Assembly: GCA_020847915.1 (NCBI GenBank) | Contig: JADLBE010000529.1 | Span: 21,417-85,416, forward strand | Reading direction: 5' to 3' | DNA: 64,000 nucleotides | DNA from: Saprospiraceae bacterium | GTDB lineage: Bacteria > Bacteroidota > Bacteroidia > Chitinophagales > Saprospiraceae | Part shown: positions 1-64,000 of the stretch, piece after piece | How the letters are laid out: every line of letters starts with the position of its first letter | Numbering within the stretch: the stretch's first letter is position 1 | Made by a program: the position numbers and the translations under genes | Notes under the pieces: generated by a model | Databases searched by the model: none | Told to the model about the DNA's origin: nothing | Seen by the model: the letters and a program-made list of their open reading frames with translations, nothing else

Positions 1-2265
1 ACTCAACCTTTTTACTTCGTTGTGTACCGTGGAAAGGATGAATCCGACGTTGTAGGAAAACCTTGATTTGGATTCACGCCAGTTCATCGACAAGTCGATG
101 CCGCGGTTCAAAACCTCAGCCTGGTTGATGACCGGGTTCGTTTGCGAACCAACGTAGGCTGGTATGGGCAAATCGGCCAGGATACCTTCCGTATAACGGT
201 TGTAAAAATCAATTTCGGTGGTCAGACGGCTGTTGAAAAAAGCCATTTCCACACCGATGTCGGCTTGTGTAACTTCTTCCCAACGTACGTCGGAATTGGC
301 GTAATTGATCAGTGTGGCGCCGTTGTTCAAACTTTCTCCGGGGCCAAGAATGACCGAAAGTCCGTTCGTGATGGCGCCAAGTGATGGATACAATTGTGTT
401 TTGTCGTTTCCGGAAATACCCCACGATGCGCGCAGTTTAAGCCGGTCGAAGATGCGCTGGTTTTCCATAAACGACTCCTGCGCAACGTTCCAGCCCACGG
501 CAAAAGAAGGAAAATAACCCCAACGGTTGTCCCGGTTGAACCTCGACGATCCGTCGGCACGCATGGACGCGGTGAAAAGGTAGCGGTCAAAAAGTGTGGT
601 ATTTACCCGGAAAAGATAGCTGACCATGGCCCAGTCTGAAGCACTCCCACTGTTGGTCATGGTGGTATCGTTGCCTGCGCTGAGGTAAAGCAATTCATCT
701 GCCCCGGACGGAAAACTGCGTCTACCGGCGCCGTAGAATTCACTGTAGGATTCCTGTGAAGTATAACCACCCAAAACGTTCAAACGAAGGTTTTCCCATT
801 CCTGAGCATAGGTGAGGGTGTTCTCCCACAGCCACGTCCGTTGCTGGTCGTAACCAAGGGTCAACTGGTCTTCCGGGTTGCGCTGGGAAATGGACACTTC
901 ATATTCGGGCAGGTAAAACTTGTTGTTCAGGTACGACAGGTCGAGACCAAAATTGCTTCTGAACGTAAAGTATTTGAAAAGTTTTATGTCGCCATAAACC
1001 GTTCCCACCATGCGGTTAACGAAGGTGTGGTTGTTTTTTCGGTAAAAAAGGTCGGCAGCGGCATTGCCCATGGCCGTTCCGTACGGATCGGTTGGGTCGG
1101 TAAAGTTCCCGGTGGAATCAAAAGGCTCCAGAACAGGCTGCATCCTGTAGGCGCCTTCCACGGAGTTGGAAGGATTTTGCGATTCCGATCGGGCAAAAGC
1201 GATGTTGTTGCCCAGGCGAATGAAGTTGTTGACCTCATACTCGTTGTTCAAACGCAAGGTGATGCGTTCGTACGACGATTCTTTAACAATGCCTTCCTGG
1301 TTGAAATAGTTGGCGGAAACGTTGTAAAGGTATTTGTTGCTGCCGCCACTGGCACTCAGTTGTACACTGCCTATGGGCGCTTGTTGAAAGAAATAATCCT
1401 GCCAATCGAAACCCGCACCCAACGAGGCAGGATCTGCAAAATAATTGCTGTTGGAGAATTCATTGTACATCTGTGCAAATTCGGAGGCATTGGCCATCGG
1501 AATTTTTCTGGTTACCTCCTGAGTGCCGTAATACGTGCTCAATGAAATCACCCCTTTGCCATCGGTACTTCCTTTTTTGGTCGTAATGATGATGACACCA
1601 TTGGCGCCACGGTTTCCGTAAATGGCCGTTGCGGAAGCGTCTTTCAACACTTCGATCGAGGCCACGTCCTGTGGATTTATGAAGGAAATGTTGTCGAGCA
1701 ACATACCATCCACAACGTACAACGGGTTGGCATTGTTCAGGGTTCCTGTACCGCGAATCCTGATGATGGCGCCTGCGCCCGGCTGTCCGCTGGACGGTGT
1801 TACGTACACACCGGCTATTTTTCCCTGCATGGCCTGCTCCAGCGAAGACGTCGGTATTTTTTCGATGTCCTTGCTTTTTAAGGTACCCACGGATCCTGTC
1901 AGGTCGCTTTTTTGCTGTACACCATAACCGATCACCACCACTTCGTCGATGAGGTTCACATTGGTGCCCATGGCCACCAGGATGTTGTTTCGGCCCGACA
2001 AAGCCTCTTCCACAGTTGTAAAACCGGTGTAATCAAACTGCAATACGGCATTCAAATCGGCCACTGAAAATCGAAAATTGCCATCGATGTCGGTGCTGGT
2101 ACCGTTGTTGGTGCCCTTTTCACGCACCGTAACACCAATGAGCCCGCTGCTGTCCGTTGAGTCGTAAACTCGCCCGGTTACGGTTACCTGGGCGACCATG
2201 GCTGTGGTCATCACACTGAAAATCAGCAGCCAAAACATTTTAGAAACTTGTATTCCTGGCTTCAT
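1..2265 (-). CDS. SusC/RagA-family TonB-dependent outer membrane receptor, N-terminal ~755 codons; 3' end lies outside the window
   Basis: The frame stays open to the window edge, so it is absent from the ORF track. Translation from ATG (complement 2265) is MKPGIQVSKMFWLLIFSVMTTAMVAQVTVTGRVYD.... It has a signal peptide, a carboxypeptidase-regulatory-like domain, the TonB box DEVVVIGYG and the plug motif NRGANGVIIITTKKG. Confidence 0.9.
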   Translation of the reverse strand, partial: MKPGIQVSKMFWLLIFSVMTTAMVAQVTVTGRVYDSTDSSGLIGVTVREKGTNNGTSTDIDGNFRFSVADLNAVLQFDYTGFTTVEEALSGRNNILVAMGTNVNLIDEVVVIGYGVQQKSDLTGSVGTLKSKDIEKIPTSSLEQAMQGKIAGVYVTPSSGQPGAGAIIRIRGTGTLNNANPLYVVDGMLLDNISFINPQDVASIEVLKDASATAIYGNRGANGVIIITTKKGSTDGKGVISLSTYYGTQEVTRKIPMANASEFAQMYNEFSNSNYFADPASLGAGFDWQDYFFQQAPIGSVQLSASGGSNKYLYNVSANYFNQEGIVKESSYERITLRLNNEYEVNNFIRLGNNIAFARSESQNPSNSVEGAYRMQPVLEPFDSTGNFTDPTDPYGTAMGNAAADLFYRKNNHTFVNRMVGTVYGDIKLFKYFTFRSNFGLDLSYLNNKFYLPEYEVSISQRNPEDQLTLGYDQQRTWLWENTLTYAQEWENLRLNVLGGYTSQESYSEFYGAGRRSFPSGADELLYLSAGNDTTMTNSGSASDWAMVSYLFRVNTTLFDRYLFTASMRADGSSRFNRDNRWGYFPSFAVGWNVAQESFMENQRIFDRLKLRASWGISGNDKTQLYPSLGAITNGLSVILGPGESLNNGATLINYANSDVRWEEVTQADIGVEMAFFNSRLTTEIDFYNRYTEGILADLPIPAYVGSQTNPVINQAEVLNRGIDLSMNWRESKSRFSYNVGFILSTVHNEVKRLS

Positions 2266-21389: not shown

Positions 21390-21412
21390 AACTTGCCAAA
21401 AACTACATCAAA

Positions 21413-46876: not shown

Positions 46877-46931
46877 AGAGAATTGTGTTACTTCGTTGCT
46901 AAGTTATCGAACCGTCAAACATTTTGAAGTC

Positions 46932-47495: not shown

Positions 47496-47507
47496 AGTTG
47501 CTCCGTC

Positions 47508-47918
47508 ATGAAAAATCTTAAATATCTGCTGTTCGGCGTTCTTTTCGGCGTCGTGCTTACCAAAACGGAGGTCATCTCCTGGTGGCGTATCCAGGAAATG
47601 TTTCGTTTCCAGTCGTTCCACATGTATGGTGTCATCGGCAGCGCCGTAGTAGTAGGCATGCTTTCCGTTTTTATTTTGAAAAAAACAGGCGCCAAATCCA
47701 TTGATGGTGAAGAACTTACCTTTGGAGTGAAAAAATTCGACAAAGGAAACATCATTGGTGGACTGATCTTCGGCATAGGCTGGGGTATCACAGGCGCTTG
47801 CCCCGGCCCGATGATGGCACTCGTTGGCTCCGGCATTACCATCATGGTCCTCGCCATCATCAGTGCGGTCGCAGGCACGTGGGTGTACGGACTGCTCCGA
47901 AATAAATTACCACACTAA
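47508..47918 (+). CDS. Small YeeE/YedE-related membrane protein (mirror copy)
   Basis: Mirror of 16021-16431 with an identical translation. Confidence 0.75.
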   Translation: MKNLKYLLFGVLFGVVLTKTEVISWWRIQEMFRFQSFHMYGVIGSAVVVGMLSVFILKKTGAKSIDGEELTFGVKKFDKGNIIGGLIFGIGWGITGACPGPMMALVGSGITIMVLAIISAVAGTWVYGLLRNKLPH

Positions 47919-47919
47919 C

Positions 47920-47978
47920 AAGTCGTAAGTCGTAAGTCATAAGTGGACTTACGACTTACGACTTACGACTTACGACTT
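47920..47978. repeat. Heptamer-built 19-bp-stem hairpin (mirror copy)
   Basis: Mirror of 15961-16019. Confidence 0.85.
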
Positions 47979-47985
47979 TTCCGCC

Positions 47986-48879
47986 ATGGCAAAAAAGATC
48001 CCAACCTACAGCATTTGCAACCTGCTTGGCGCCGACCAGTGCGTGGCTGAATTTCTTGTGATGCGCATCAGCGATTTCACGCGTGCCCATCCCGATTTGT
48101 TGTTTCCGCACCGTCATGCCTTTTACCAGATCGTTTTGTTTACGGAAGGTGGTGGAGAACATACCATCGATTTCGAGTCGTATGCGGTAAAACCGCATCA
48201 GGTGTATTACATGGCGCCTGGACAAATTCATTCCTGGCATTTTTTGCCTGGTACGGAGGGCTACATCGTGAACTTCAACGAAAGCTTTTTCACCGCCATC
48301 TGCCACAACCCCAACTTCATCGCGGAGTTTCCGTTGTTCAACACCGTGAGCGGACAACCCGTCAATGTTTTGGAAACCGAATGTTGCAGTGAGGTACACG
48401 GTTTGATGGAACGCATGCTCGACGAATACCACCTGGATGCAGATTTTCGGAACGATTTTTTACGCGCCCTGCTGATGCAGATGCTGGTGCTTTTGTCGAG
48501 GGCCATGCCACAAAACAGCAAACAGGAAGTGAGCCGTCACCAACTTACCGTTTTGCGTAATTTTGAAAAACTGATAGAGCAAAACTTTCGGGAAAAACGC
48601 CTTCCACGCGATTATGCCGAAATGCTGTACATCACACCCAACCACCTCAATGCCCTCAGCAATTCGGTGCTTGGCAAACCTGCCGGCGAACTCATCCGCG
48701 AGAGGGTAGTGCTGGAAGCCAAACGCCTGCTCGTCAATTCGGACTACACCGTAACCCAAATTGCAGACATGCTTCATTTTGAAGACAATGCGTATTTCAC
48801 CCGGTTCTTTAAAAAGTATACAAGCATGTCACCCGAAATTTTCCGGCAGGAATACCAAAAAACGCTGGCGGTGGGTTGA
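47986..48879 (+). CDS. AraC-family transcriptional regulator (mirror copy)
   Basis: Mirror of 15060-15953 with an identical translation. Confidence 0.9.
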   Translation: MAKKIPTYSICNLLGADQCVAEFLVMRISDFTRAHPDLLFPHRHAFYQIVLFTEGGGEHTIDFESYAVKPHQVYYMAPGQIHSWHFLPGTEGYIVNFNESFFTAICHNPNFIAEFPLFNTVSGQPVNVLETECCSEVHGLMERMLDEYHLDADFRNDFLRALLMQMLVLLSRAMPQNSKQEVSRHQLTVLRNFEKLIEQNFREKRLPRDYAEMLYITPNHLNALSNSVLGKPAGELIRERVVLEAKRLLVNSDYTVTQIADMLHFEDNAYFTRFFKKYTSMSPEIFRQEYQKTLAVG

Positions 48880-49025
48880 AAGAGAAGTTCTACCTTGCAT
48901 CCTCAACACAGCGTTGGAAAAAAAGCCCTGAAAAGGCGAAAAACGACAGAATGAGATCACATCAAACCTGTCCTATTTCGCTTTTTCAGGGCTTTATTTG
49001 CACCCATGTGTTGATTGATCCTGAA

Positions 49026-51791: not shown

Positions 51792-51947
51792 TCTTTTCCA
51801 GCTTTTTTTTGTTGTGGTGTAGTAGTGGTGAGGTGCTGTTTTACACACCTCTTGGCTTTTTAGCCTAATTTCATGCTGGAAAAAATAATGGTTCCAAAAT
51901 ATTTTTTTCTTTTTGGAAACCGTTGTAAACATGCCACAACGAATTAC

Positions 51948-53807
51948 ATGAAAACAAACATACACCTGAGTACGCTGCTGTTGTTTCCGCTGGGATGCCT
52001 TTTTGCCCAGGCGCCTCCGTCATCTTTTGCTGCTGAAGGATTCGACAGTCACATTGAATTGCACTGGCAAGGTTCCGGTGCCACAAGTGTGACCGGCTAC
52101 CAATTGTTCCGCTCCGACAACGGCGGGCAAAGTTTCAGTTTACTTAAAGCGCTTGGACCCGGTAACGAAACCTACATCGACTGGACAGGTGATGAGGGAG
52201 CAGGCATTTCCAGACAATACGCCATACGTACCCTCGCCGAAGGAGGCATGATCGGACCCTTTTCCGATACCCTGACGGCAACCACACATGTCTTCAGCGA
52301 TGAGGAATTGCTTGAGATGGTGCAGCGATACACTTTCCGGTATTTTTGGGATTTTGCCCACCCGCAAAGCGGCATGGCACGTGAACGCAATACTTCCGGG
52401 AACACCGTTACAACCGGTGGTTCGGGTTTTGGACTTTTGTCCATCGTTACCGGCATCGAACGCGGCTGGATCACCCGGCAGGAAGGTGTGGACAGGATGC
52501 TTCAGATTGTTTCGTTTCTCCAGATTTGTGAAAAGTACCACGGCGCCCTGCCGCACTGGATCAATGGCGCCACGGGACAAACCATTCCTTTCAGTACTTT
52601 CGACAACGGCGGCGACCTGGTGGAAACTGCGTTTATGATGCAGGGACTGCTGATTTGCAGGGAATATTTTGATCAAAACAATGCCCTGGAAAATACCCTG
52701 CGCGATGTGATCACCGATTTGTGGGAAGGCGTGGAATGGGATTGGTACCGGCGCAACAACAGCAATGTGTTGTATTGGCACTGGTCGCCGCAATACCAGT
52801 GGCAAATGAATTTTCCCCTTCGCGGTTTCAACGAAACCCAGATAACTTACCTGCTTGCCGTGGCGTCACCAACACACGGCGTACCGGCCAGTTTGTACCA
52901 GACAGGATGGGCCGGTGGCGGCTATACCAACAACGCCTCCTATTATGGTTACCCGATTTGCTGCGGCCCATACGCCGGCGGCCCTTTGTTTTTTGCTCAT
53001 TATTCCTTCCTGGGTTTTGATCCGCGCAACAAAAAAGACGCTTACTGCAATTACTTTGTGCGCAACCGCAACCACGCCTTGATCCATCAGGCGTATTGCA
53101 ATTCAAACCCTGAAAACCACGAAGGCTATTCCGATGAGTGTTGGGGTCTCACGGCCAGCGACAATCCCTGGGGTTACCAGGCGCACGATCCGTTTCCGGC
53201 AAACGACAACGGTACCATTGCACCAACGGCGGCCCTTGCATCCATGCCTTACACCCCACAGGAAAGTATGAAGGCGTTGAAGCATTTTTACCGGGTTCTC
53301 GGCGAGCAACTTTGGGGACGTTATGGTTTTTACGATGCGTTCAACCTCGATCAGAACTGGTTTGCCTCCTCCTACCTTGCCATCGACCAGGGACCCATCG
53401 TGGCCATGATCGAAAACCACCGTACCGGTTTGTTTTGGGACCTTTTTATGCAGGCGCCTGGCATACAATCGGCTGTGGCGGCTGTTGGTTTTGTACCTGA
53501 TGCCAGTTCAACGGAGGAAACCTCACGCACGTCGTATGGGTTTGATGTTGTGCTCCGGCCCAATCCGGTGGTAGCAGGACAAACGACGCTACTCGAATTG
53601 CAGGTGTTGACCGGTAGTGTATTTCAGGTGGAAGTTGTTGATAAGCAGGGAGTATTGAGGCAAATTGCCGTTAACACAAGGGCTTTTAAACCAGGCATTT
53701 ACAACCTCCCCATTGCAACTGCAGGACTCGAACCCGGCATGTATTTTATAGCTGTAAAAACTGAAAATGGAAAAACCCGCAGCGTGAAGCTGCTCGTTTC
53801 GCCATGA
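51948..53807 (+). CDS. GH144-like glucanase with T9SS C-terminal domain (mirror copy)
   Basis: Mirror of 10132-11991. Confidence 0.78.
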   Translation: MKTNIHLSTLLLFPLGCLFAQAPPSSFAAEGFDSHIELHWQGSGATSVTGYQLFRSDNGGQSFSLLKALGPGNETYIDWTGDEGAGISRQYAIRTLAEGGMIGPFSDTLTATTHVFSDEELLEMVQRYTFRYFWDFAHPQSGMARERNTSGNTVTTGGSGFGLLSIVTGIERGWITRQEGVDRMLQIVSFLQICEKYHGALPHWINGATGQTIPFSTFDNGGDLVETAFMMQGLLICREYFDQNNALENTLRDVITDLWEGVEWDWYRRNNSNVLYWHWSPQYQWQMNFPLRGFNETQITYLLAVASPTHGVPASLYQTGWAGGGYTNNASYYGYPICCGPYAGGPLFFAHYSFLGFDPRNKKDAYCNYFVRNRNHALIHQAYCNSNPENHEGYSDECWGLTASDNPWGYQAHDPFPANDNGTIAPTAALASMPYTPQESMKALKHFYRVLGEQLWGRYGFYDAFNLDQNWFASSYLAIDQGPIVAMIENHRTGLFWDLFMQAPGIQSAVAAVGFVPDASSTEETSRTSYGFDVVLRPNPVVAGQTTLLELQVLTGSVFQVEVVDKQGVLRQIAVNTRAFKPGIYNLPIATAGLEPGMYFIAVKTENGKTRSVKLLVSP

Positions 53808-53925
53808 TTATATGTATTTTTTAACCTTCAAAAACCATGAGTACATCAAACAATCCGGGACCTGTCCCGAAAATCTCAAATCCTGAATTACAATTCAATC
53901 ACTAACTTTTTTTAAAGAAGCACGT

Positions 53926-56900
53926 ATGAAAAATTTACTTCTCACAAGTTGCCTTGCCTTACTGGCATGCTTCAGTGTTACCGCACAGGTAACGTTTGAA
54001 GATTTTGAGGGCGGCACCGCCGACATTGCATGGTCTGGTGTGAATGGCACGTACAATGGCGCCATTGCCAACCCCGATCAATCGGGTATCAACACCAGCG
54101 GTTTTGTAGGTTCTTACACCAACAGCCCTGCATTTGATTTCAACTTCGCCATTGCCGATGTTCCCGGCGGCACGGTTGACCTTTCGGAGTTCAACGTTTT
54201 TAAAATCAAAATCTGGTCGCCGACCGCTCCTGCAGTCGCACTTTTCAAATTTGAAGGCGGCGGTCAGGGTCAGGAAAAAGTCGTCAACATTACTACCGCC
54301 AATGAATGGGTAGAATATACCTTCGACTTGTCGGCCGGTGAAAACAAAACCCTGATGAACAAGGTGTTGATTTCGTTCAACTCGTTTGTTTTGGGCGACA
54401 ACGCTACCTATTATTGGGACGACATCGTTGCTTACAAGGACGAAGTTTACGAAACCTTTGAAGTGCCTTCGGGCATCGATTGGGTAACGTTTAACGGCGG
54501 TTTGTACAGCGGTCCTGTAGCTAACCCCGCACCGGACTGGGTAAACAATTCAGCTACCGTAGGATGTTTCACAAACAATCCAGCTTCGGATTTCAGTTTT
54601 TTCCTCGGCACAGCGCCGGAAAATTTTGATCTGGCTGTTTTTAACCAGTTCAAATTCAAACTTTGGGCGCCCAATCCTACACGTTTGCTTTTCAAAGTTG
54701 AAGGCGCAGGCGGTGGTGTGGAAAAATTCGTCAATATTGCTGTAGCCAATGTTTGGCAGGAGTATACCGTCGATTTCTCTGGCTCTTCCACGCTTATTGA
54801 CATCAACAAAATCCTGATTTCCTACACGCCGTTTGCCGTCAGCGAAGACGATACGTTTTACGTAGACGACATTCGTGCCGAAGCCAAAGGAATTTGTACC
54901 GGAGCTACACTCGATCCGCTGGTGATCGACGATTACGATTGCAACCGCAATGCTACCTATGGCCTGGGTTGGGACAGTCTTACCGTGGTGGACAACCCGT
55001 TCCCATCGGGCGACAACAACTCGCTGCAGGTAGGCCGCGTTGCCGATAAAACCGGTGCCGGATCCGAATATTACCCATTGGTTTTTGATTATGAAGATCC
55101 CATAGATTTGTCTGTTCGAAACCAGTTCACTTTCCAACTGTATTCCGCCAAAGCAGGTACTGTTTTGGTAAAAATTGAAGGTGGAATGGGCCAAAAAGAG
55201 GTGCCTTTCGACATGGTGCCCAACCAGTGGACAACCTACACCTTTGATGTTGCCGACCAGGTTGGCAAAGGACACAAACGGTTTGTCATATTTTTCAATG
55301 CCGGTCAAAATGGCGAAGTTGGCGATGTGTACTACATCGACAATGTAAAATTGGTAGAGCCTACCGCATTGCCTCCTGTGGAAGATTTTGAAGATGGTTT
55401 GTCGCTTTTCTGGCAGCCTCTGGGTGGCAATGTTGCCCTTCATGGAATCTTCAATGCCCCGGCGCCTAACCCTGGCCCCAACAGTGTAAACGACTCAGAC
55501 AATTCCGGCTGCTATACACTTGGTACCTCGGCTTTTTCCACTTTGGAAGCATTTTCTGCAACGCCATTTGATCTGACGCTTTACCCACAATTCAACCTTG
55601 ATGTACGCAGCCCGGCAGGTGGCGGTACGGTATTGATGATCCTCAATTCAGCCACCGGCAACAAGGAATTTGAAGCAACAGTAACCACACCCGGAGAATG
55701 GGAAACCCTGAGTTTCGATTTTTCGACGGCCAGTGATGTCGACGATATTCAACAAATCAGCCTGCGTTTCAACTCGGGTACGGCTGCTCCTGGCACCACA
55801 TGGTGCATCGACAACCTGCGTCAAAGCGATGCAACCGTTGATCCATGTGTGGATGTGACCATCAATGACAAAATCGTTGATGACTTCGAATGCCAGCGCA
55901 ATTACGAATCCATTTTCTACGGAGGAACCAACCTGACGGTCATCAACAACCCTTACCTGAACGCCGGTAACCCGTCTACCAAGGTGGGCAAATACGACGA
56001 CCCGATCAACGAACCTTTCGCAGGCCTCGGTTACGAATTTGCAACGGCCCCCGATTTGAGCGTTTACAACATTCTTCAGGTACGCGTGTACTCCACGGTA
56101 GCCAACCTGCCTTTCCTGTTTAAATTACAAGGCGGTGCACAAGTTGAAATCACAGAAAACATTCCGGTGGCCAACGAATGGCACACCTTTGAAATCGATT
56201 TCAGCGGCGTAGCCAACAACGACAACAAACAGTTGGTGATTTTCCCCAATGCAGGCAGCAACGATGCCGGAACGTACTGGATCGACGATGTGCGTTTCAA
56301 ACGCGCAGGTTACAACGGTTGTGTAAGCGACTACGAAACACCTGCAACGTCGTTCAACAACTTCACGTACTTCAACAACGGTTCTTTCAACCAACCTTTC
56401 GAAGCCATCAGCAACCCGAATCCTTCGGGCATCAACACCAGCAATACGGTGGGTAAATTTGTTGCAGCTGCCGATGCAGGAATCTACTTTGGTATGTTCA
56501 GCCAGCTGGATGCCGCCATCGATTTCCAGGGCAACAAAACGGTGCGTATGAAAGTACACATGGACCACATTGGTACCGTAACGGTAAAAGCGGAAATTTT
56601 CGGAAATCCATTTCCTCCAGTGGAAATTACCGTACCCAACACGCTTGTAAACCAGTGGGAAGAACTGTCCTTTGATTTCAGCGCCGTAGACGACGCTGCC
56701 AAATACGACCGTTTCACCATTTTCTTCGACATCGCAACGACCGGAACTGGTACCGACGTAATCAGCTACTTCGACGACATCGTGATCGGCAACGGCATGT
56801 GCAACAGCATCAGCACCTTCACACCGCCTACCGTTGAAGCCATCAAGGTTTCACCCAACCCGGTAACGGATCGACTGCGTGTAACCAACCTGCCCGAATC

Positions 56901-57072
56901 GGCACGTCTCGATGTGTTCAACCTTTACGGTCAGAAAGTAAGCAGCATCCTTACAGGTGGTAACAACCGCAGCGAAGTTGACGTAACCCGTCTGCCAGCA
57001 GGTGTTTACACCCTCAGCGCTTTCAACGAACAAGGCATGCTCATAGGCAACGCCAAGTTTGTGAAACAATAA
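53926..57072 (+). CDS. Six-module CBM-like T9SS-sorted protein (mirror copy)
   Basis: Mirror of 6867-10013 with an identical translation. Confidence 0.8.
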   Translation: MKNLLLTSCLALLACFSVTAQVTFEDFEGGTADIAWSGVNGTYNGAIANPDQSGINTSGFVGSYTNSPAFDFNFAIADVPGGTVDLSEFNVFKIKIWSPTAPAVALFKFEGGGQGQEKVVNITTANEWVEYTFDLSAGENKTLMNKVLISFNSFVLGDNATYYWDDIVAYKDEVYETFEVPSGIDWVTFNGGLYSGPVANPAPDWVNNSATVGCFTNNPASDFSFFLGTAPENFDLAVFNQFKFKLWAPNPTRLLFKVEGAGGGVEKFVNIAVANVWQEYTVDFSGSSTLIDINKILISYTPFAVSEDDTFYVDDIRAEAKGICTGATLDPLVIDDYDCNRNATYGLGWDSLTVVDNPFPSGDNNSLQVGRVADKTGAGSEYYPLVFDYEDPIDLSVRNQFTFQLYSAKAGTVLVKIEGGMGQKEVPFDMVPNQWTTYTFDVADQVGKGHKRFVIFFNAGQNGEVGDVYYIDNVKLVEPTALPPVEDFEDGLSLFWQPLGGNVALHGIFNAPAPNPGPNSVNDSDNSGCYTLGTSAFSTLEAFSATPFDLTLYPQFNLDVRSPAGGGTVLMILNSATGNKEFEATVTTPGEWETLSFDFSTASDVDDIQQISLRFNSGTAAPGTTWCIDNLRQSDATVDPCVDVTINDKIVDDFECQRNYESIFYGGTNLTVINNPYLNAGNPSTKVGKYDDPINEPFAGLGYEFATAPDLSVYNILQVRVYSTVANLPFLFKLQGGAQVEITENIPVANEWHTFEIDFSGVANNDNKQLVIFPNAGSNDAGTYWIDDVRFKRAGYNGCVSDYETPATSFNNFTYFNNGSFNQPFEAISNPNPSGINTSNTVGKFVAAADAGIYFGMFSQLDAAIDFQGNKTVRMKVHMDHIGTVTVKAEIFGNPFPPVEITVPNTLVNQWEELSFDFSAVDDAAKYDRFTIFFDIATTGTGTDVISYFDDIVIGNGMCNSISTFTPPTVEAIKVSPNPVTDRLRVTNLPESARLDVFNLYGQKVSSILTGGNNRSEVDVTRLPAGVYTLSAFNEQGMLIGNAKFVKQ

Positions 57073-57073
57073 A

Positions 57074-57111
57074 CAGCAGTCAGCAGTCAGCAGTCAGCAG
57101 TCAGCAGTCAG
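57074..57111. repeat. (CAGCAGT)x5 tandem heptamer repeat (mirror copy)
   Basis: Mirror of 6828-6865. Confidence 0.85.
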
Positions 57112-57211
57112 TTTTTCAATGGAATGTCACTTGAAAAAAAACATTCGATTGGTTTATTGATTTGACTGGCTGCTGGCTGTTGACACTTTTTTCTTTTAAA
57201 CCGTTTCTGCC

Positions 57212-59377
57212 ATGGGTCGTATTTGCATCCTTTGTTTTTGTTTTTTACTATTCCCAATGGCCTTTTCACAGGCGCAACAGTCGCCCATGGTCAACCCTGT
57301 ACCTTACAGCATTGACGAACTTCAACGCCGGACGTTTAATTGGTTTTGGGAACTTGCGGACACAACCAACTTTCAAATCCCCGACCGATACCCGACACTT
57401 TCATTTTCCAGCATAGCAGCTACAGGATTTGGTTTAAGCAGTTACCTCGTGGGTGTCGAACGGGGTTGGATTACCCGCAAACAAGCCGCTGACCGCGTTT
57501 TAAAAACCCTGCAGGTTTTGAAAGACCTGCCCCAGGGACCGCAAGCGCAGGGAGTTTCGGGTTACAAGGGATTTTATTACCATTTTCTCGACAATCAGAA
57601 AGCACATCGTTATCAAAAAGTCGAGCTTTCCTCCATCGATACCGGATTACTTATGGCCGGCATTTTGTCGTGTATGAGTTATTTCGACGGCAACGATGCT
57701 ACCGAAAAAGCCATTCGCGAAACATCTGATTTCCTTTACCGTCGGGTAGAATGGGATTGGTTTATGAACGACCGTTACCTGCTCAGCATGGGCTGGCACC
57801 CTGAAAAAGGGTTCCTTTCTGCCGAGTGGCGCGGCTACAACGAAGCCATGGTTTTACTCGTCATGGCCATGGGTTCGCCCACACATCCGGTGCCTAAAAA
57901 AATGTGGGACCAATGGTGTAACACATATTACCGCACGGAATACAAAGGACAGGACATGGTGAATTTCGGTCCACTTTTTGGTCACCAGTACAGCCATGTT
58001 TGGATCGATTTTCGGGGCATCCAGGACGATTACATGCGCGGTATGGGCATTGATTATTTTGAAAACAGCCGCCGTGCTACGCTTGCCAACCGTCAACATT
58101 GCATCGATAACCCAGGTGGTTTTACTGGTTACGGTCCCAATATTTGGGGTCTCACCGCAGGTGACGGTCCCGGCTACGCCGAAAAAAAGTTTAATGGACG
58201 AACAGTCCGGTTCAATGGTTATGCAGCCCGTGGCGTTGCTGCCGATTACCACGACGACGACGGCACCATTGCACCTACAGCTGTAGGAGGATCGGTGCCG
58301 TTTGCGCCTGAAGTTTGCCTGCCCGCACTGGAAGCCATGTGGAACCGTTTTCCGGTTGGTTTGTATGGTTTTTACGACGGGTACAATGAAAGTTACACCT
58401 GGAAAGACGAAGGCGCCAAAGGACAGGACGGCTTCCCTTACTGGGTAGATGTTGATTACCTGGGCATCGACCAGGGCCCCATTTTGCTCATGCTTGAAAA
58501 CCACCGCAGCGAGCTGTTGTGGAACATCATGAAAAAAAATCCATACATCGTGCAGGGGTTAAAAAAGGCGGGATTTACAGGCGGTTGGTTGGATAAAAGC
58601 AAGGCCATCACGGCAGAATCACCTGCTTACGGCAAAAGTGCTGTTACCAACCCAGACATCCCGCTGGATCCGGCTGGTTACTTCCAGCGACTGGAATACA
58701 AAGACGCTTCCGGCAAAAAGCTGCCTTATCAAATGCTTAAACCGGAAAGTCCCAAAAAGGGTGTAAAATATCCGTTGGTTTTGTTTTTACACGGCGCTGG
58801 TGAACGTGGTGATAACAACCATGCACAAACAAAAAACGGCGTTTATGCTTTTTGTGAAACCGTAAACCTTGAAAAATACCCCTGTTACCTAATAGCTCCA
58901 CAATGTCCAATCGGCCAGCAATGGGGAGGCCTGCAACGTGGACTTGAAAGTGTGACATTTGATCCCTCAACGCCTTCGGAGCCAGGCCGTTTGGCCCTTG
59001 AATTGCTCGACAAAGTTCTTCAGGAAAATCCGGACATCGACCGCAACAGAATTTACATCACCGGCTTGTCGATGGGTGGTTTTGGCACCATCGATTTGCT
59101 CATGCGCCGTCCCGAATTGTTTGCAGCGGCCATGCCCCTGTGCGGTGGCGGCGACATTCAATACACTGACAAAATCAAAAACATACCCATTTGGCTGTTT
59201 CATGGTGGAATTGATGAGGTTGTGCTGCCTGCTTTTTCAAGAAATATGTATAAAGCTTTGAAAGACAAGGGCTCCAGCGTCAAATACACCGAATTCAGTA
59301 CCCTCGGGCATTCCATGTGGCAGGAAACTTATTACAATCCTGCTGTTTTGGACTGGCTGTTTTCCCAACACCGTTGA
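57212..59377 (+). CDS. GH144-like glucanase domain fused to alpha/beta-hydrolase esterase (mirror copy)
   Basis: Mirror of 4562-6727 with an identical translation. Confidence 0.75.
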   Translation: MGRICILCFCFLLFPMAFSQAQQSPMVNPVPYSIDELQRRTFNWFWELADTTNFQIPDRYPTLSFSSIAATGFGLSSYLVGVERGWITRKQAADRVLKTLQVLKDLPQGPQAQGVSGYKGFYYHFLDNQKAHRYQKVELSSIDTGLLMAGILSCMSYFDGNDATEKAIRETSDFLYRRVEWDWFMNDRYLLSMGWHPEKGFLSAEWRGYNEAMVLLVMAMGSPTHPVPKKMWDQWCNTYYRTEYKGQDMVNFGPLFGHQYSHVWIDFRGIQDDYMRGMGIDYFENSRRATLANRQHCIDNPGGFTGYGPNIWGLTAGDGPGYAEKKFNGRTVRFNGYAARGVAADYHDDDGTIAPTAVGGSVPFAPEVCLPALEAMWNRFPVGLYGFYDGYNESYTWKDEGAKGQDGFPYWVDVDYLGIDQGPILLMLENHRSELLWNIMKKNPYIVQGLKKAGFTGGWLDKSKAITAESPAYGKSAVTNPDIPLDPAGYFQRLEYKDASGKKLPYQMLKPESPKKGVKYPLVLFLHGAGERGDNNHAQTKNGVYAFCETVNLEKYPCYLIAPQCPIGQQWGGLQRGLESVTFDPSTPSEPGRLALELLDKVLQENPDIDRNRIYITGLSMGGFGTIDLLMRRPELFAAAMPLCGGGDIQYTDKIKNIPIWLFHGGIDEVVLPAFSRNMYKALKDKGSSVKYTEFSTLGHSMWQETYYNPAVLDWLFSQHR

Positions 59378-59380
59378 TCA

Positions 59381-61606
59381 ATGTCATCCATTCGCTGTAT
59401 GAAAGTTTTACAACCATCGTTGCTGATTATGTGCCTTTTGCTGGCGCAAATACACCTGAGCGCTCAACCGTCGAAACACACGCAAAAAGTTGAGGCGTTG
59501 CTCGCCAAAATGACCCTTGAGGAGAAAATTGGGCAAATGACCCTGTATACCACAGACTGGGGTTCTACCGGACCAACCATTCGGGAAGGGTACCGCACCG
59601 ACATCCGTTCGGGCGCCTGCGGTGCATTGTTCAACAGCCATACCACTGCATTTACCCGCGAACTCCAGCGCATCGCCGTGGAAGAATCGCGTTTGAAAAT
59701 TCCGCTTTTGTTTGGCTACGATGTCATTCATGGTTACAAAACCATTTTTCCCATACCCCTGGGCGAGGCGGCCAGCTGGGATCCTGCCGCCGCCGAAACA
59801 TCGGCTCGTGTAGCTGCTGTTGAAGCATCGGCTTCCGGATTGCACTGGACCTTTGCACCCATGTGCGACGTCAGCCGCGACCCCCGCTGGGGCCGCGTAA
59901 TGGAAGGCGCAGGGGAGGATACTTACCTGGGAAGCCGCTTTGCTGAAGCACGTGTTCGTGGCTTTCAGGGGCGTGGACTGGGCAATACCGACGCCATGAT
60001 TGCCTGTGTGAAACACTTTGCAGGTTATGGAGCACCCATGGGCGGACGGGATTACAACACCGTGGACATGAGCGAGCGTTATTTCCGCGATTTTTACCTG
60101 CCGCCCTACGAAGCGGCGGTGCGTGCAGGCGCGGCAACGGTCATGACGTCATTCAACGACTACGACGGCATGCCTGCCTCCGGAAACAAACATTTGCTGA
60201 CCGACATCCTGCGCAAGGAATGGGGTTTTACAGGGTTTGTTGTCACGGATTATACGTCCATCAACGAAATGGTGAACCACGGCGTGGCCGCCGACGATAA
60301 AGCGGCAGGCGAACTCGCCGCGAATGCCGGTGTGGACATGGACATGCAAGGCGCTGTTTACCAGCGTTTTTTGGCCCAATCGGTGCGCGATGGGAAAGTA
60401 CCCGTATCGCAAATCGACGATGCCGTGCGCCGCATACTCACCCTCAAAATGGACATGGGATTGTTTGAAGATCCCTACAAATTTTGCGATCCGGAACGCG
60501 AAAAACGCGTGATCCTCAGCGCCGACCACCGTGCCAAAGCACGCGATGTTGCCCGCAAATCGGTGGTGCTTTTAAAAAATGAAGGACAAACGCTTCCGCT
60601 GAATACCAAAGCCAAAATCGCCCTGATCGGTCCGCTTGGTGATAACCAGAGTGAACTTATCGGTGCCTGGTCGGGTTCCGGCAGCGGCAACGACTGCATC
60701 AGCCTTTTGCAGGGTTTGACCAATGCAGGAGGCAATGTTACTTTCAGCAAAGGTTGCAATGTTGAAGGCGATGACCGCAGTGGTTTCGATGCCGCAGTAG
60801 CACTTGCCCGACAGAGCGATGTAATCGTCCTTGCCATAGGTGAAATGGCCTGGATGAGCGGAGAAGCAGCTTCACGTGCCGACATCAACCTACCGGGTGT
60901 CCAGGAAGAACTCGCCCGTGCACTCAAGGCAACCGGCAAACCGATGGTGGTGGTTTTGATGAACGGTCGGCCACTCACCATTCCATGGTTGGCTGAAAAC
61001 GCTTCCTCCATCCTCGAAGCCTGGTGGCTGGGCACGGAGACGGGCAACGCTTTGGCCGACATCCTGTACGGCGCTTACAATCCTTCGGGCAAACTTCCCA
61101 TGACTTTTCCACGCAGCGTAGGTCAGGTGCCTGTTTTTTACAACGAAAAAAGTACCGGCAGGCCCTATGATCCCAATTCCAAATGGACCAGCAAATACAT
61201 CGATTCGCCCAATGCACCACTTTATGCCTTTGGATATGGGCTTAGCTACACCACCTTCAGCTACGGCGACCCGGTGGTGGATAAAAAAGCTTTCAGCAAC
61301 GGTGAAAAAATCACCTTGCGTGTTCGCCTGACCAATACCGGCAAATACGAGGGCGAAGAAACCGTGCAACTGTACATCCGCGACCTGGTAGCTTCGTCCA
61401 CAAGGCCGGTGAAAGAATTGAAAGGGTTTCAGAAAATTCGCCTGAAGCCAGGCGAAAGCAGGGATGTAAGTTTTGAAATTGGTGAAAATGACCTTAAATT
61501 TTACCGCCGAGACATGACCTATGGCACCGAGCCAGGCGATTTCGACCTCATGGTAGGTGGTTCCTCCGATCAGGTAAAAACCATTCGGGTACAGCTTAAA
61601 CCCTAA
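59381..61606 (+). CDS. bglX: GH3 beta-glucosidase BglX-type (mirror copy)
   Basis: Mirror of 2333-4558 with an identical translation. Confidence 0.93.
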   Translation: MSSIRCMKVLQPSLLIMCLLLAQIHLSAQPSKHTQKVEALLAKMTLEEKIGQMTLYTTDWGSTGPTIREGYRTDIRSGACGALFNSHTTAFTRELQRIAVEESRLKIPLLFGYDVIHGYKTIFPIPLGEAASWDPAAAETSARVAAVEASASGLHWTFAPMCDVSRDPRWGRVMEGAGEDTYLGSRFAEARVRGFQGRGLGNTDAMIACVKHFAGYGAPMGGRDYNTVDMSERYFRDFYLPPYEAAVRAGAATVMTSFNDYDGMPASGNKHLLTDILRKEWGFTGFVVTDYTSINEMVNHGVAADDKAAGELAANAGVDMDMQGAVYQRFLAQSVRDGKVPVSQIDDAVRRILTLKMDMGLFEDPYKFCDPEREKRVILSADHRAKARDVARKSVVLLKNEGQTLPLNTKAKIALIGPLGDNQSELIGAWSGSGSGNDCISLLQGLTNAGGNVTFSKGCNVEGDDRSGFDAAVALARQSDVIVLAIGEMAWMSGEAASRADINLPGVQEELARALKATGKPMVVVLMNGRPLTIPWLAENASSILEAWWLGTETGNALADILYGAYNPSGKLPMTFPRSVGQVPVFYNEKSTGRPYDPNSKWTSKYIDSPNAPLYAFGYGLSYTTFSYGDPVVDKKAFSNGEKITLRVRLTNTGKYEGEETVQLYIRDLVASSTRPVKELKGFQKIRLKPGESRDVSFEIGENDLKFYRRDMTYGTEPGDFDLMVGGSSDQVKTIRVQLKP

Positions 61607-61627
61607 TTTTATAAAATCATTTGTTTC

Positions 61628-61655
61628 GAATTCCGAACTCCGAACTTCGAACTCC
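61628..61655. repeat. Degenerate tandem heptamer repeat (mirror copy)
   Basis: Mirror of 2284-2311. Confidence 0.7.
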
Positions 61656-61673
61656 AAACTAATTTCCTTCCGT

Positions 61674-64000
61674 ATGAAGCCAGGAATACAAGTTTCTAAA
61701 ATGTTTTGGCTGCTGATTTTCAGTGTGATGACCACAGCCATGGTCGCCCAGGTAACCGTAACCGGGCGAGTTTACGACTCAACGGACAGCAGCGGGCTCA
61801 TTGGTGTTACGGTGCGTGAAAAGGGCACCAACAACGGTACCAGCACCGACATCGATGGCAATTTTCGATTTTCAGTGGCCGATTTGAATGCCGTATTGCA
61901 GTTTGATTACACCGGTTTTACAACTGTGGAAGAGGCTTTGTCGGGCCGAAACAACATCCTGGTGGCCATGGGCACCAATGTGAACCTCATCGACGAAGTG
62001 GTGGTGATCGGTTATGGTGTACAGCAAAAAAGCGACCTGACAGGATCCGTGGGTACCTTAAAAAGCAAGGACATCGAAAAAATACCGACGTCTTCGCTGG
62101 AGCAGGCCATGCAGGGAAAAATAGCCGGTGTGTACGTAACACCGTCCAGCGGACAGCCGGGCGCAGGCGCCATCATCAGGATTCGCGGTACAGGAACCCT
62201 GAACAATGCCAACCCGTTGTACGTTGTGGATGGTATGTTGCTCGACAACATTTCCTTCATAAATCCACAGGACGTGGCCTCGATCGAAGTGTTGAAAGAC
62301 GCTTCCGCAACGGCCATTTACGGAAACCGTGGCGCCAATGGTGTCATCATCATTACGACCAAAAAAGGAAGTACCGATGGCAAAGGGGTGATTTCATTGA
62401 GCACGTATTACGGCACTCAGGAGGTAACCAGAAAAATTCCGATGGCCAATGCCTCCGAATTTGCACAGATGTACAATGAATTCTCCAACAGCAATTATTT
62501 TGCAGATCCTGCCTCGTTGGGTGCGGGTTTCGATTGGCAGGATTATTTCTTTCAACAAGCGCCCATAGGCAGTGTACAACTGAGTGCCAGTGGCGGCAGC
62601 AACAAATACCTTTACAACGTTTCCGCCAACTATTTCAACCAGGAAGGCATTGTTAAAGAATCGTCGTACGAACGCATCACCTTGCGTTTGAACAACGAGT
62701 ATGAGGTCAACAACTTCATTCGCCTGGGCAACAACATCGCTTTTGCCCGATCGGAATCGCAAAATCCTTCCAACTCCGTGGAAGGCGCCTACAGGATGCA
62801 GCCTGTTCTGGAGCCTTTTGATTCCACCGGGAACTTTACCGACCCAACCGATCCGTACGGAACGGCCATGGGCAATGCCGCTGCCGACCTTTTTTACCGA
62901 AAAAACAACCACACCTTCGTTAACCGCATGGTGGGAACGGTTTATGGCGACATAAAACTTTTCAAATACTTTACGTTCAGAAGCAATTTTGGTCTCGACC
63001 TGTCGTACCTGAACAACAAGTTTTACCTGCCCGAATATGAAGTGTCCATTTCCCAGCGCAACCCGGAAGACCAGTTGACCCTTGGTTACGACCAGCAACG
63101 GACGTGGCTGTGGGAGAACACCCTCACCTATGCTCAGGAATGGGAAAACCTTCGTTTGAACGTTTTGGGTGGTTATACTTCACAGGAATCCTACAGTGAA
63201 TTCTACGGCGCCGGTAGACGCAGTTTTCCGTCCGGGGCAGATGAATTGCTTTACCTCAGCGCAGGCAACGATACCACCATGACCAACAGTGGGAGTGCTT
63301 CAGACTGGGCCATGGTCAGCTATCTTTTCCGGGTAAATACCACACTTTTTGACCGCTACCTTTTCACCGCGTCCATGCGTGCCGACGGATCGTCGAGGTT
63401 CAACCGGGACAACCGTTGGGGTTATTTTCCTTCTTTTGCCGTGGGCTGGAACGTTGCGCAGGAGTCGTTTATGGAAAACCAGCGCATCTTCGACCGGCTT
63501 AAACTGCGCGCATCGTGGGGTATTTCCGGAAACGACAAAACACAATTGTATCCATCACTTGGCGCCATCACGAACGGACTTTCGGTCATTCTTGGCCCCG
63601 GAGAAAGTTTGAACAACGGCGCCACACTGATCAATTACGCCAATTCCGACGTACGTTGGGAAGAAGTTACACAAGCCGACATCGGTGTGGAAATGGCTTT
63701 TTTCAACAGCCGTCTGACCACCGAAATTGATTTTTACAACCGTTATACGGAAGGTATCCTGGCCGATTTGCCCATACCAGCCTACGTTGGTTCGCAAACG
63801 AACCCGGTCATCAACCAGGCTGAGGTTTTGAACCGCGGCATCGACTTGTCGATGAACTGGCGTGAATCCAAATCAAGGTTTTCCTACAACGTCGGATTCA
63901 TCCTTTCCACGGTACACAACGAAGTAAAAAGGTTGAGTCTGGGACGTTCAGAGATTTTTTCCGGAGGTACAGGACAAGGCGATCAGGCTTCCAGGACTGT
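61674..64000 (+). CDS. SusC/RagA-family TonB-dependent receptor, N-terminal ~775 codons; runs off the window end (mirror copy plus 62 extra nt)
   Basis: The ATG is at 61674 and the frame stays open to 64000. Motifs are as for complement(1..2265). Confidence 0.9.
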   Translation, partial: MKPGIQVSKMFWLLIFSVMTTAMVAQVTVTGRVYDSTDSSGLIGVTVREKGTNNGTSTDIDGNFRFSVADLNAVLQFDYTGFTTVEEALSGRNNILVAMGTNVNLIDEVVVIGYGVQQKSDLTGSVGTLKSKDIEKIPTSSLEQAMQGKIAGVYVTPSSGQPGAGAIIRIRGTGTLNNANPLYVVDGMLLDNISFINPQDVASIEVLKDASATAIYGNRGANGVIIITTKKGSTDGKGVISLSTYYGTQEVTRKIPMANASEFAQMYNEFSNSNYFADPASLGAGFDWQDYFFQQAPIGSVQLSASGGSNKYLYNVSANYFNQEGIVKESSYERITLRLNNEYEVNNFIRLGNNIAFARSESQNPSNSVEGAYRMQPVLEPFDSTGNFTDPTDPYGTAMGNAAADLFYRKNNHTFVNRMVGTVYGDIKLFKYFTFRSNFGLDLSYLNNKFYLPEYEVSISQRNPEDQLTLGYDQQRTWLWENTLTYAQEWENLRLNVLGGYTSQESYSEFYGAGRRSFPSGADELLYLSAGNDTTMTNSGSASDWAMVSYLFRVNTTLFDRYLFTASMRADGSSRFNRDNRWGYFPSFAVGWNVAQESFMENQRIFDRLKLRASWGISGNDKTQLYPSLGAITNGLSVILGPGESLNNGATLINYANSDVRWEEVTQADIGVEMAFFNSRLTTEIDFYNRYTEGILADLPIPAYVGSQTNPVINQAEVLNRGIDLSMNWRESKSRFSYNVGFILSTVHNEVKRLSLGRSEIFSGGTGQGDQASRT

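What the first reader, a model, noticed from the sequence alone, without database searches (positions are those of the whole stretch)
1..63938. The whole window is one zero-spacer, apparently perfect 2 x 31,969-bp palindrome
Seen in sequence:
- Every ORF in the six-frame track has a partner with the same translation on the opposite strand. Coordinates sum to 63939 at both the outer ends and the centre, so there is no net indel.
- The ends, the centre and several intergenic stretches I checked by eye are exact reverse complements, and no unique spacer lies between the arms.
- The symmetry is cut off only by the window edge (63939-64000 continues the susC-like gene), so the structure may extend further.

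Established knowledge: long perfect palindromes are strongly unstable in bacteria (hairpin or cruciform formation, SbcCD cleavage, replication slippage). Housekeeping genes such as pgi are normally single copy.

Inference: the most parsimonious explanation is a fold-back chimeric molecule carried into the assembly. Possible sources are a long-read library molecule missing one adapter, template/complement read-through, or an inverted chimera from strand-displacement amplification. Biological alternatives are a covalently closed hairpin telomere of a linear replicon read around the turn, or a genuine palindromic duplication or amplification. Either would be remarkable for a Bacteroidota-like chromosome.
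Basis: partly seen in the sequence, partly recalled or inferred. Interest (0 to 1): 0.85.

Follow-up and report, generated by a model that had tools for sequence, protein, structure and literature searches.

The report
Fold-back misassembly at a natural hairpin
The window really is a perfect giant DNA palindrome, but it is almost certainly a mirror-image assembly or library artefact that folded back at a natural 90-base hairpin behind the pgi gene, not a real chromosome structure.

Summary
Window 1..63938 is an exact reverse-complement palindrome with 0 mismatches and no indel, centred at 31969|31970. It also runs past both window edges. In the public record (NCBI MAG 'Saprospiraceae bacterium', 106,770-bp contig), 14 proteins carry two accession numbers in mirrored order. 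That gives arms of at least ~36 kb.

New finding: the centre is not arbitrary. It sits in the 4-nt loop (CTAG) of a 43-bp-stem hairpin (31925..32014) that starts in the pgi stop codon. Four related lineages have a homologous, perfectly paired 36-43-bp hairpin at this spot, followed by a convergent thiolase gene. Their contigs cross it or enter it from both flanks. The window has mirrored pgi in place of thiolase. The same MAG appears to carry the orthologous thiolase on a separate 2,674-bp contig.

The best reading (~0.85) is a fold-back join nucleated at the natural palindrome, either a chimeric molecule or a graph mis-traversal. A hairpin telomere is contradicted by the relatives. A real in-vivo inverted duplication has precedent but is unlikely. 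Interest is low; the main value is curation of the public record.

The parts
1..31969 (.). Left arm of the palindrome as visible in the window. Gene order: SusC-like (partial), GH3, two PF10091 glycoamylase-like proteins, T9SS-tailed proteins, Reg_prop/Y_Y_Y regulator, AraC, sulphur-transport proteins, P-type ATPase, Usp, TetR, M61 peptidase, LTD/Big_5 protein, SH3-like protein, PGI/PMI, pgi.
   Evidence: exact mirror of 31970..63938. (Pfam); the relative L163 is collinear with window 19635..31954.
31970..63938 (.). Right arm, the exact reverse complement of 1..31969. One of the two arms is the redundant, non-native copy. Which one cannot be told, because they are identical.
   Evidence: 0 mismatches; each protein has two NCBI accessions in mirrored order.
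31925..32014 (.). Native-type 90-bp perfect palindrome: a 43-bp stem plus the loop CTAG. It begins at the 'GA' of the pgi TGA stop codon. The inner part has the shape of a bidirectional intrinsic terminator (A6-CCAAGCGG-loop-CCGCTTGG-T6). This is the nucleation site of the fold-back.
   Evidence: DNA fold -51.7 kcal/mol, z = -19.7. Homologous hairpins lie at the same position in L174 (43-bp stem, loop ATTG), L164-L167 (36-bp stem, loop CTAC) and L163+L168 (outer 30 nt).
31968..31971 (.). Centre of symmetry: the hairpin loop CTAG. The axis lies between 31969 and 31970.
30598..31926 (+). pgi (glucose-6-phosphate isomerase, 442 aa as annotated by NCBI, MCC6414226.1).
   Evidence: PF00342. (the exact sequence carries accessions MCC6414226.1 and MCC6414227.1).
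32013..33341 (-). Mirrored second copy of pgi (MCC6414227.1). It occupies the place where relatives have a convergent thiolase gene.
   Evidence: Relatives. No thiolase anywhere in the window.
1..2265 (-). N-terminal 755 codons of the SusC-like TonB-dependent receptor, which runs off the left window edge.
   Evidence: the full-length 996-aa protein P0367 = MCC6414206.1 / MCC6414247.1.
61674..64000 (+). Mirrored SusC-like gene. Positions 63939..64000 are its continuation; their mirror lies just outside the left window edge.

Best explanation
The true chromosome of this Saprospiraceae organism most likely reads ...SusC...PGI/PMI - pgi - [90-bp palindromic hairpin] - thiolase (convergent) - rhodanese..., as in its relatives.

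The hairpin has a 43-bp perfect stem and a self-complementary CTAG loop, so it is its own reverse complement. A path that enters it from the pgi side can therefore leave it back along the pgi side on the other strand. This fold-back could have happened in one of two ways:

- In a physical library or amplification molecule. A strand ending in or near the hairpin snaps back and is extended on itself, or a strand-displacing polymerase switches template at the hairpin.
- In the assembly graph. There the palindrome is a node identical to its own reverse complement, with both the pgi flank and the thiolase flank attached to the same end.

The assembler then extended both mirrored arms with ordinary reads. 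Polishing with reads that map equally to both arms made the arms identical. The thiolase flank was left behind as a short orphan contig.

Shown: the perfect mirror, its extension beyond the window, the natural hairpin at its centre, the native junction in relatives, and the absence of thiolase from the window. Inferred: that the same MAG's 2,674-bp thiolase contig is the orphaned flank, and that the fold-back is not present in the organism's DNA.
For: - Exact identity over 63,938 bp, continuing over four more genes per side. This is what one consensus written twice looks like.
- The axis falls in the loop of the only long perfect hairpin of the arm.
- Native pgi-hairpin-thiolase junctions occur in every relative examined.
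  - Contigs L164-L167 (pgi 89% identical) and L174 run through the hairpin.
  - In sample SRR24908239 (pgi 92% identical), the pgi contig L163 and the thiolase contig L168 both end in the same 30-nt arm, GACGTATTGATTCAGGCCAGCGTAAAATGA. That is the expected break of a k=31 graph at an inverted repeat (k value from my own knowledge of Logan).
- Homology to the relative L164 stops at window 31930, near the outer edge of the hairpin, and L163 itself ends at 31954, 30 nt into the arm. There is no thiolase in the window.
- Thiolase P0130 = MCC6411499.1 differs from the hairpin-adjacent thiolases of the relatives at only a few positions on reading the sequences. It sits on a 2,674-bp contig of a Saprospiraceae MAG. 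MCC6414204.1 carries locus tag IT270_21540, roughly the 4,308th gene, and the thiolase accession is 2,705 lower. It therefore falls inside the same assembly (inference from NCBI numbering practice).
- Such artefacts are documented.
  - Exactly mirrored palindromic contigs were removed as assembly artefacts from single-cell assemblies (PMC12755884).
  - Fold-back reads make up about 0.55-0.6% of nanopore gDNA reads and can tangle assembly graphs (PMC12870357).
  - Whole-genome amplification makes artificial palindromic sequences (Pacasus abstract).
Against: - No reads, depths or assembly method are available, so the fold-back has not been shown to be absent from genomic DNA.
- A centre on a pre-existing short palindrome is also the signature of genuine palindrome-induced inverted duplication (PMC3315005).
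- The thiolase contig's DNA could not be retrieved. Neither its end in the hairpin arm nor its membership of the same MAG has been read directly.
- It is unknown whether the mirror runs to a contig end. Only at least ~72 of 106.8 kb is accounted for.
- Perfect symmetry of the loop needs the native loop to be CTAG, or needs symmetrisation by polishing.
Confidence: 0.85

Rival explanations
1. Real but transient molecules. In some cells a double-strand break on the thiolase side was resected up to the natural 90-bp palindrome. The single strand folded into a hairpin-capped end, and replication of that end gave an inverted chromosome duplication centred on the hairpin. Sequencing sampled these dead-end or minority molecules and the assembler preferred them.
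For: - The centre lies exactly on a natural palindrome with the loop retained.
- In E. coli, 246-bp and 85-bp interrupted palindromes produce hairpin-capped ends and inverted chromosome duplications centred on themselves (PMC3315005).
- Short inverted repeats start large palindromes in mammalian cells (title of Tanaka et al. 2002, in the reference list seen).
- The native thiolase flank is still present in the MAG, which would fit a mixed population.
Against: - In E. coli the reaction is seen only without SbcCD and RecA.
- A minority product would seldom win an assembly.
- In-vitro snap-back at the same hairpin gives the same sequence outcome.
- There is no read or depth evidence.
Confidence: 0.09
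2. A stable, heritable giant inverted duplication in the chromosome, comparable to the 38-76-kb inverted repeats at the replication terminus of Lactobacillus delbrueckii ssp. bulgaricus and some other bacteria.
For: - Large inverted repeats do exist in a few circular bacterial chromosomes (PMC5345009).
- The record was deposited and annotated with both arms.
Against: - Those natural repeats are separated by 1-8.8 kb of unique sequence. Here the gap is 4 nt.
- 0 differences in at least 72 kb means no evolutionary age.
- No relative has the duplication.
- Long, nearly spacer-free palindromes are unstable in bacteria (established knowledge; PMC4245961 abstract).
- Thiolase is orphaned on a short contig.
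Confidence: 0.03
3. A covalently closed hairpin telomere of a linear replicon, read around the turn.
For: A read going round a hairpin end would give a palindrome centred on the turn. The centre is a strong hairpin.
Against: - In relatives the same hairpin is internal, with thiolase, rhodanese, a PAS histidine kinase and other genes continuing beyond it on the same contigs.
- No protelomerase-like or phage/plasmid gene appears among the arm's 20 proteins. The content is chromosomal housekeeping genes and a polysaccharide-utilisation locus.
- A thiolase ortholog exists in the same MAG.
Confidence: 0.02

Closest known systems
Palindromic (fold-back) contigs and reads as sequencing or assembly artefacts: exactly mirrored contigs in MDA-based single-cell assemblies (PMC12755884), fold-back reads in nanopore gDNA (PMC12870357), and WGA palindromes (Pacasus, PMC6218980).
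   Same: [quoted passage not shown] Housekeeping genes are duplicated. The relatives lack the duplication.
   Different: - The turn here sits precisely in the loop of a natural 43-bp-stem hairpin, so the event was sequence-driven and not at a random fragment end.
- The arms are at least 36 kb, far longer than a single chimeric read needs to be.
- The technology and assembler used for this MAG are unknown.
Palindrome-induced inverted chromosome duplication in E. coli (Darmon et al. 2010, PMC3315005), and large palindromes started by short inverted repeats (Tanaka et al. 2002).
   Same: - A pre-existing palindrome of about 85-250 bp lies at the exact centre.
- The predicted product is flank-palindrome-mirrored flank with the native loop retained.
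- The other flank is lost from that molecule.
   Different: - It was demonstrated only in sbcCD recA mutants and by Southern blotting or microscopy.
- Here nothing shows that the molecule exists in cells.
- The same product arises in vitro by snap-back at the hairpin.
Very large inverted repeats at the replication terminus of Lactobacillus delbrueckii ssp. bulgaricus (PMC5345009).
   Same: Tens of kilobases of inverted duplication in a bacterial chromosome record.
   Different: - Those have a 1-8.8-kb unique centre, are conserved among strains, show divergence and decay, and include dif.
- This one has a 4-nt centre and zero divergence, and is absent from all relatives.
Bidirectional intrinsic terminator between convergent genes (applies to the natural 90-bp hairpin only).
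   Same: The inner part is A6 - GC-rich stem - loop - stem - T6. It lies between convergent pgi and thiolase in relatives.
   Different: The stem is 36-43 bp and perfectly paired in every lineage, several times longer than an ordinary terminator stem. Arm differences between lineages are always compensated.

Membership tests
Fold-back palindromic contig (artefact) | The two halves are exact reverse complements with no divergence. | tested here: met
   0 mismatches in 63,938 positions; identical protein sequences with paired accessions beyond the window.
Fold-back palindromic contig (artefact) | The native, non-mirrored junction exists for the same locus. | tested here: inconclusive
   Met in four related lineages. 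For the window's own genome there is only an inference: thiolase MCC6411499.1 sits on a 2,674-bp contig of the same assembly. Its DNA is not retrievable.
Fold-back palindromic contig (artefact) | The mirror runs to at least one contig end, with no unique flanks on both sides. | not testable with these tools
   Only at least ~72 kb of the 106,770-bp contig could be traced through paired accessions.
Fold-back palindromic contig (artefact) | Read evidence: the turn is supported only by chimeric reads, and arm depth is half when multi-mapped. | not testable with these tools
   No reads are available. Only two short, 100%-identical Logan contigs from SRR11294035 and SRR11294036 were found, and they lie away from the centre.
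Hairpin telomere of a linear replicon | The site is a physical end of the replicon. | tested here: not met
   Contigs of relatives continue through the homologous hairpin into thiolase and further genes.
Hairpin telomere of a linear replicon | A telomere resolvase (protelomerase) is encoded. | tested here: not met
   None of the 20 proteins of the arm has such a Pfam domain. The rest of the genome was not examined.
Palindrome-induced inverted chromosome duplication (in vivo) | Centred on a pre-existing short palindrome, with the loop retained. | tested here: met
   the axis lies in the loop of the conserved 43-bp-stem hairpin.
Palindrome-induced inverted chromosome duplication (in vivo) | The duplicated molecule is physically present in cellular DNA. 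| not testable with these tools
   Needs reads, Southern blotting, or a snap-back assay.
Natural terminus-associated large inverted repeats (L. delbrueckii type) | Arms separated by kilobases of unique sequence, and conserved among strains. | tested here: not met
   The spacer is 4 nt. The duplication is absent in all relatives. The criteria come from PMC5345009.
Intrinsic (bidirectional) terminator, for the 90-bp hairpin only | A GC-rich stem flanked by an A-tract and a T-tract, between convergent genes. | tested here: met
   The scan did not list it, because in the window the paired region continues past the scan's stem limits.
Intrinsic (bidirectional) terminator, for the 90-bp hairpin only | A stem of ordinary size (roughly 5-15 bp). 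| tested here: not met
   43 bp in the window and L174, 36 bp in L164.

The most novel reading that the evidence does not exclude
The fold-back molecules are real. The conserved 90-bp perfect palindrome behind pgi would then be a natural fragile site that produces hairpin-capped chromosome ends, or inverted chromosome duplications, in a wild Saprospiraceae population. The assembly would have captured that product. Until now this reaction has been shown only in engineered E. coli sbcCD recA mutants.
Probability: 0.09. Interest if true: 0.6.

Novelty: not a real feature. Interest (0 to 1): 0.14.

Why it matters
**Curation.** A public NCBI MAG (locus-tag prefix IT270, 106,770-bp contig) carries at least 72 kb of mirrored sequence. 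At least 24 genes, pgi included, are annotated twice in it. That inflates genome size, gene copy numbers and duplication or contamination estimates. It also hides the true pgi-thiolase junction.

**Method.** The case shows that a natural perfect palindrome shorter than 100 bp is enough to turn an assembly back on itself. It also shows that the position of the turn, natural hairpin versus random point, tells sequence-driven fold-backs from adapter or read-through errors.

**If the molecules were real.** This would be a natural example of palindrome-induced inverted chromosome duplication in an environmental bacterium.

**The hairpin itself.** It has a 36-43-bp stem, is perfectly paired in each lineage, and shows compensated changes between lineages. 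It is a modest real curiosity.

Tried and rejected
- Exact look-ups of pgi with starts 30598 and 30592, and of a guessed C-terminal fragment from 31081, found nothing in the contig index. So no contig of the same strain covering the centre could be retrieved.
- Thiolase P0130 (MCC6411499.1) is not on record in the contig index. The decisive check, whether the 2,674-bp contig ends in the hairpin arm, therefore could not be made.
- P0128-type thiolases (L169-L173) turned out to have a different downstream region without pgi, so they are uninformative.
- The Rfam scan of the centre gave only sub-threshold hits to long-hairpin miRNA precursors and sRNAs. These are generic hairpin matches, not a family assignment.
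- Literature searches for the run, protein and locus-tag identifiers found no paper. The sequencing platform and assembler remain unknown.
- GC skew is symmetric by construction and says nothing about a replication terminus.
- Repeat element: the hairpin arms occur nowhere else in the window, so it is not a dispersed REP-like element within this 32 kb.
- tRNA or integration-site ideas: there are no tRNAs in the window.
Full report
**1. Observation**

A base-by-base test shows that every position i of 1..63938 is the complement of position 63939-i, with 0 mismatches. Shifting the axis by even one base gives about 75% mismatches. The window therefore holds a perfect palindrome of 2 x 31,969 bp with its axis between 31969 and 31970. 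No chance model applies. The sequence at the axis is ...AAAATGAAAAAACCAAGCGGCT|AGCCGCTTGGTTTTTTCATTTT..., 43 nt after the TGA of a pgi gene.

**2. What the arms are**

The arm is ordinary Bacteroidota (Saprospiraceae-like) chromosome.
- It carries a SusC-like receptor, GH3, two PF10091 'glycoamylase' proteins, T9SS-tailed proteins, a Reg_prop/Y_Y_Y regulator and AraC.
- It also carries sulphur-transport proteins, a heavy-metal P-type ATPase, Usp, TetR, an M61 peptidase, an LTD/Big_5 protein, an SH3-like protein, a bifunctional PGI/PMI and pgi.
- There are no tRNAs, and no phage, plasmid or telomere-resolvase domain.

**3. Where it comes from, and how far it extends**

Exact-sequence look-ups place the window's proteins in an NCBI record, 'MAG: Saprospiraceae bacterium', on a contig of 106,770 bp. 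Each protein has two accession numbers, and the pairs are mirrored:

| Protein | Accession pair |
|---|---|
| pgi | MCC6414226 / 227 |
| PGI/PMI | 225 / 228 |
| SH3 | 224 / 229 |
| Usp | 219 / 234 |
| ATPase | 217 / 236 |
| AraC | 212 / 241 |
| Further pairs | 210 / 243, 209 / 244, 208 / 245 |

The SusC-like protein is cut by both window edges. Its full length (996 aa) carries MCC6414206 / 247.

I then took the neighbours of the 91%-identical SusC in a relative's contig (L175) and looked up their 90% clusters. The MAG's SusD (205/248), a 460-aa protein (204/249, locus tag IT270_21540) and a cobalamin adenosyltransferase (203/250) are also paired. The mirror thus extends at least ~4.2 kb beyond each window edge. 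That gives arms of at least ~36.2 kb, or at least 72 kb of the 106.8-kb contig (spacing inferred from L175). The palindrome is in the deposited record, not something made when the window was cut.

**4. The centre is a natural hairpin**

The closest pgi relatives found were 92% identical (P0001) and 89% identical (P0002). Their contigs gave three lines of evidence.
- **P0002 group (L164-L167, ENA/JGI).** pgi is followed at once by a 36-bp perfect inverted repeat with loop CTAC. Then comes a convergent thiolase, then rhodanese, a PAS histidine kinase and further genes.
- **L174 (JGI, 1,633 bp).** The contig spans the pgi 3' end, a 43-bp perfect stem with loop ATTG, 13 nt, and the thiolase stop.
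- **Sample SRR24908239 (the 92% relative).**
  - The pgi contig L163 shares the window's gene order from the ATPase to pgi. It ends 28 nt after the stop codon.
  - The thiolase contig L168 ends 43 nt after its stop codon.
  - Both contigs end in the same 30-nt sequence, GACGTATTGATTCAGGCCAGCGTAAAATGA, read inward. Both flanks therefore enter one inverted repeat. This is what a k=31 graph does at an inverted repeat whose arms exceed k (the k value is my knowledge of the Logan assemblies).

The window's central 90 bp (31925..32014) is the homologue of these hairpins. It starts at the 'GA' of the stop codon and has a 43-bp stem. Its inner 21 nt are identical to L174, and its loop is CTAG. As single-stranded DNA it folds at -51.7 kcal/mol, with z = -19.7 against shuffles.

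Outside this element the relatives diverge from the window. Homology of L164 stops at window 31930, near the outer edge of the hairpin, and L163 ends at 31954, 30 nt into the arm. The window then has mirrored pgi where the relatives have thiolase, and no thiolase is found anywhere in the 64 kb.

**5. The missing flank**

A search with the relatives' thiolase found P0130 = MCC6411499.1, 'MAG: Saprospiraceae bacterium', on a 2,674-bp contig. It differs from the hairpin-adjacent thiolases P0126, P0127 and P0129 at only a few positions. Locus tag IT270_21540 marks MCC6414204.1 as roughly the 4,308th gene of its assembly, and the thiolase accession is 2,705 lower. The thiolase therefore falls within the same assembly (inference from NCBI's consecutive numbering). 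The MAG thus seems to contain the native right-hand flank as an orphan short contig. I could not read its DNA.

**6. Mechanism**

A 90-bp sequence that is its own reverse complement lets a path entering from pgi leave towards pgi on the other strand. Two routes give the same product.
- **(a) A physical fold-back molecule.** A strand ending at the hairpin snaps back and is extended, or a strand-displacing polymerase switches template there.
- **(b) An assembly-graph turn.** The palindrome is one node with both flanks on the same side, which any k below 90 leaves unresolved.

Either way, ordinary reads then extend both arms. Polishing makes the arms identical, and the thiolase flank is stranded.

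All routes retain the native loop. The 'zero spacer' therefore only requires the loop to be CTAG, or a loop symmetrised by polishing with reads that map in both orientations.

A missing adapter or template/complement read-through would put the turn at a random fragment end.

Precedents for such artefacts:
- Exactly mirrored contigs were discarded as artefacts (PMC12755884).
- Fold-back reads make up about 0.55-0.6% of nanopore gDNA reads, and their authors warn that they tangle assembly graphs (PMC12870357).
- Whole-genome amplification makes artificial palindromes (Pacasus).

**7. Rivals**

- **Real in-vivo molecules.**
  - In E. coli, 246-bp and 85-bp palindromes give hairpin-capped ends and inverted chromosome duplications centred on themselves. 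This happens only without SbcCD and RecA (PMC3315005).
  - The geometry here is identical, so minority or dead-end molecules cannot be excluded (~0.09).
- **A stable giant inverted repeat.**
  - Known natural cases have 1-8.8 kb of unique centre, are conserved among strains and are diverging (PMC5345009).
  - Here the centre is 4 nt, divergence is zero and the relatives lack the duplication (~0.03).
- **A hairpin telomere.** It is contradicted by relatives whose contigs run through the site, by the chromosomal gene content, and by the thiolase in the same MAG (~0.02).

**8. Limits**

There are no reads, depth figures or assembler information. The source contig itself was not retrievable. Two Logan contigs from SRR11294035 and SRR11294036 are 100% identical to window 28345..29588 and 29508..31109, so the strain is present in those runs. 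They do not reach the centre. Whether the mirror runs to the contig ends is unknown.

**9. Verdict**

The interpretation as a non-native fold-back is the best-supported reading (0.85). What I add is that it was nucleated by a conserved natural 90-bp palindromic hairpin between pgi and thiolase. This is not a real genomic feature of interest beyond record curation. The natural hairpin, with its unusually long and always perfect stem and its compensated arm changes between lineages, is the only biologically real oddity, and a modest one.

Noticed in passing
window 31925-32014; also L174 (reverse strand), L164:3595-3670, and the ends of L163 and L168: A natural hairpin directly after the pgi stop codon has a 36-43-bp stem that is perfectly paired in every lineage. 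The arm sequences nevertheless differ between lineages: 7 of 43 positions between the window and L174, and 6 of 30 against L163. All differences are mirrored in the other arm. L165 has a single 1-nt bulge. The stem is much longer than an ordinary terminator. This suggests either selection for pairing or templated correction of the arms (quasipalindrome-type template switching).
   Followed up: partly
window 15961-16019 (mirror 47920-47978): Four tandem copies of the heptamer AAGTCGT are followed at once by the inverted copies (ACTTACG)n. They form a 19-25-bp hairpin in the intergenic space between the AraC-like gene and the DUF6691/sulphur-transport genes.
   Followed up: no
window 14925-15036 (mirror 48903-49014): An imperfect inverted repeat with 47-nt arms (83% complementary, 18-nt spacer) lies at the junction of the AraC-like gene and the Reg_prop/Y_Y_Y regulator gene. 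It is possibly a terminator or a regulatory structure.
   Followed up: no
window 1-15063, continuing outside the left edge: The arm carries a polysaccharide-utilisation-type cluster: SusC/SusD, GH3, two PF10091 'putative glucoamylase' proteins (one fused to an S9/esterase domain), T9SS-sorted proteins and a Reg_prop/Y_Y_Y regulator. From memory, PF10091 corresponds to beta-1,2-glucanase-type enzymes, so this may be a beta-glucan locus. I did not test that.
   Followed up: no
window 29524-31926: A bifunctional PGI/PMI (bact-PGI_C, 328 aa) sits directly upstream of the canonical pgi (442 aa). So there are two phosphoglucose isomerase-type genes in tandem, and the arrangement is conserved in the relatives L163-L166.
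   Followed up: no
L171, L172, L173 (ends), compared with L169 and L170: Three independent Logan contigs of another thiolase lineage all stop at the same base, 53 nt after the thiolase stop codon, while the ENA scaffolds continue. This is probably another inverted-repeat-induced graph break.
   Followed up: no
NCBI record (MAG Saprospiraceae bacterium, locus-tag prefix IT270, 106,770-bp contig): The public annotation lists every gene of the mirrored region twice (accessions MCC6414203-MCC6414250 at least). The record would benefit from being flagged or trimmed.
   Followed up: partly
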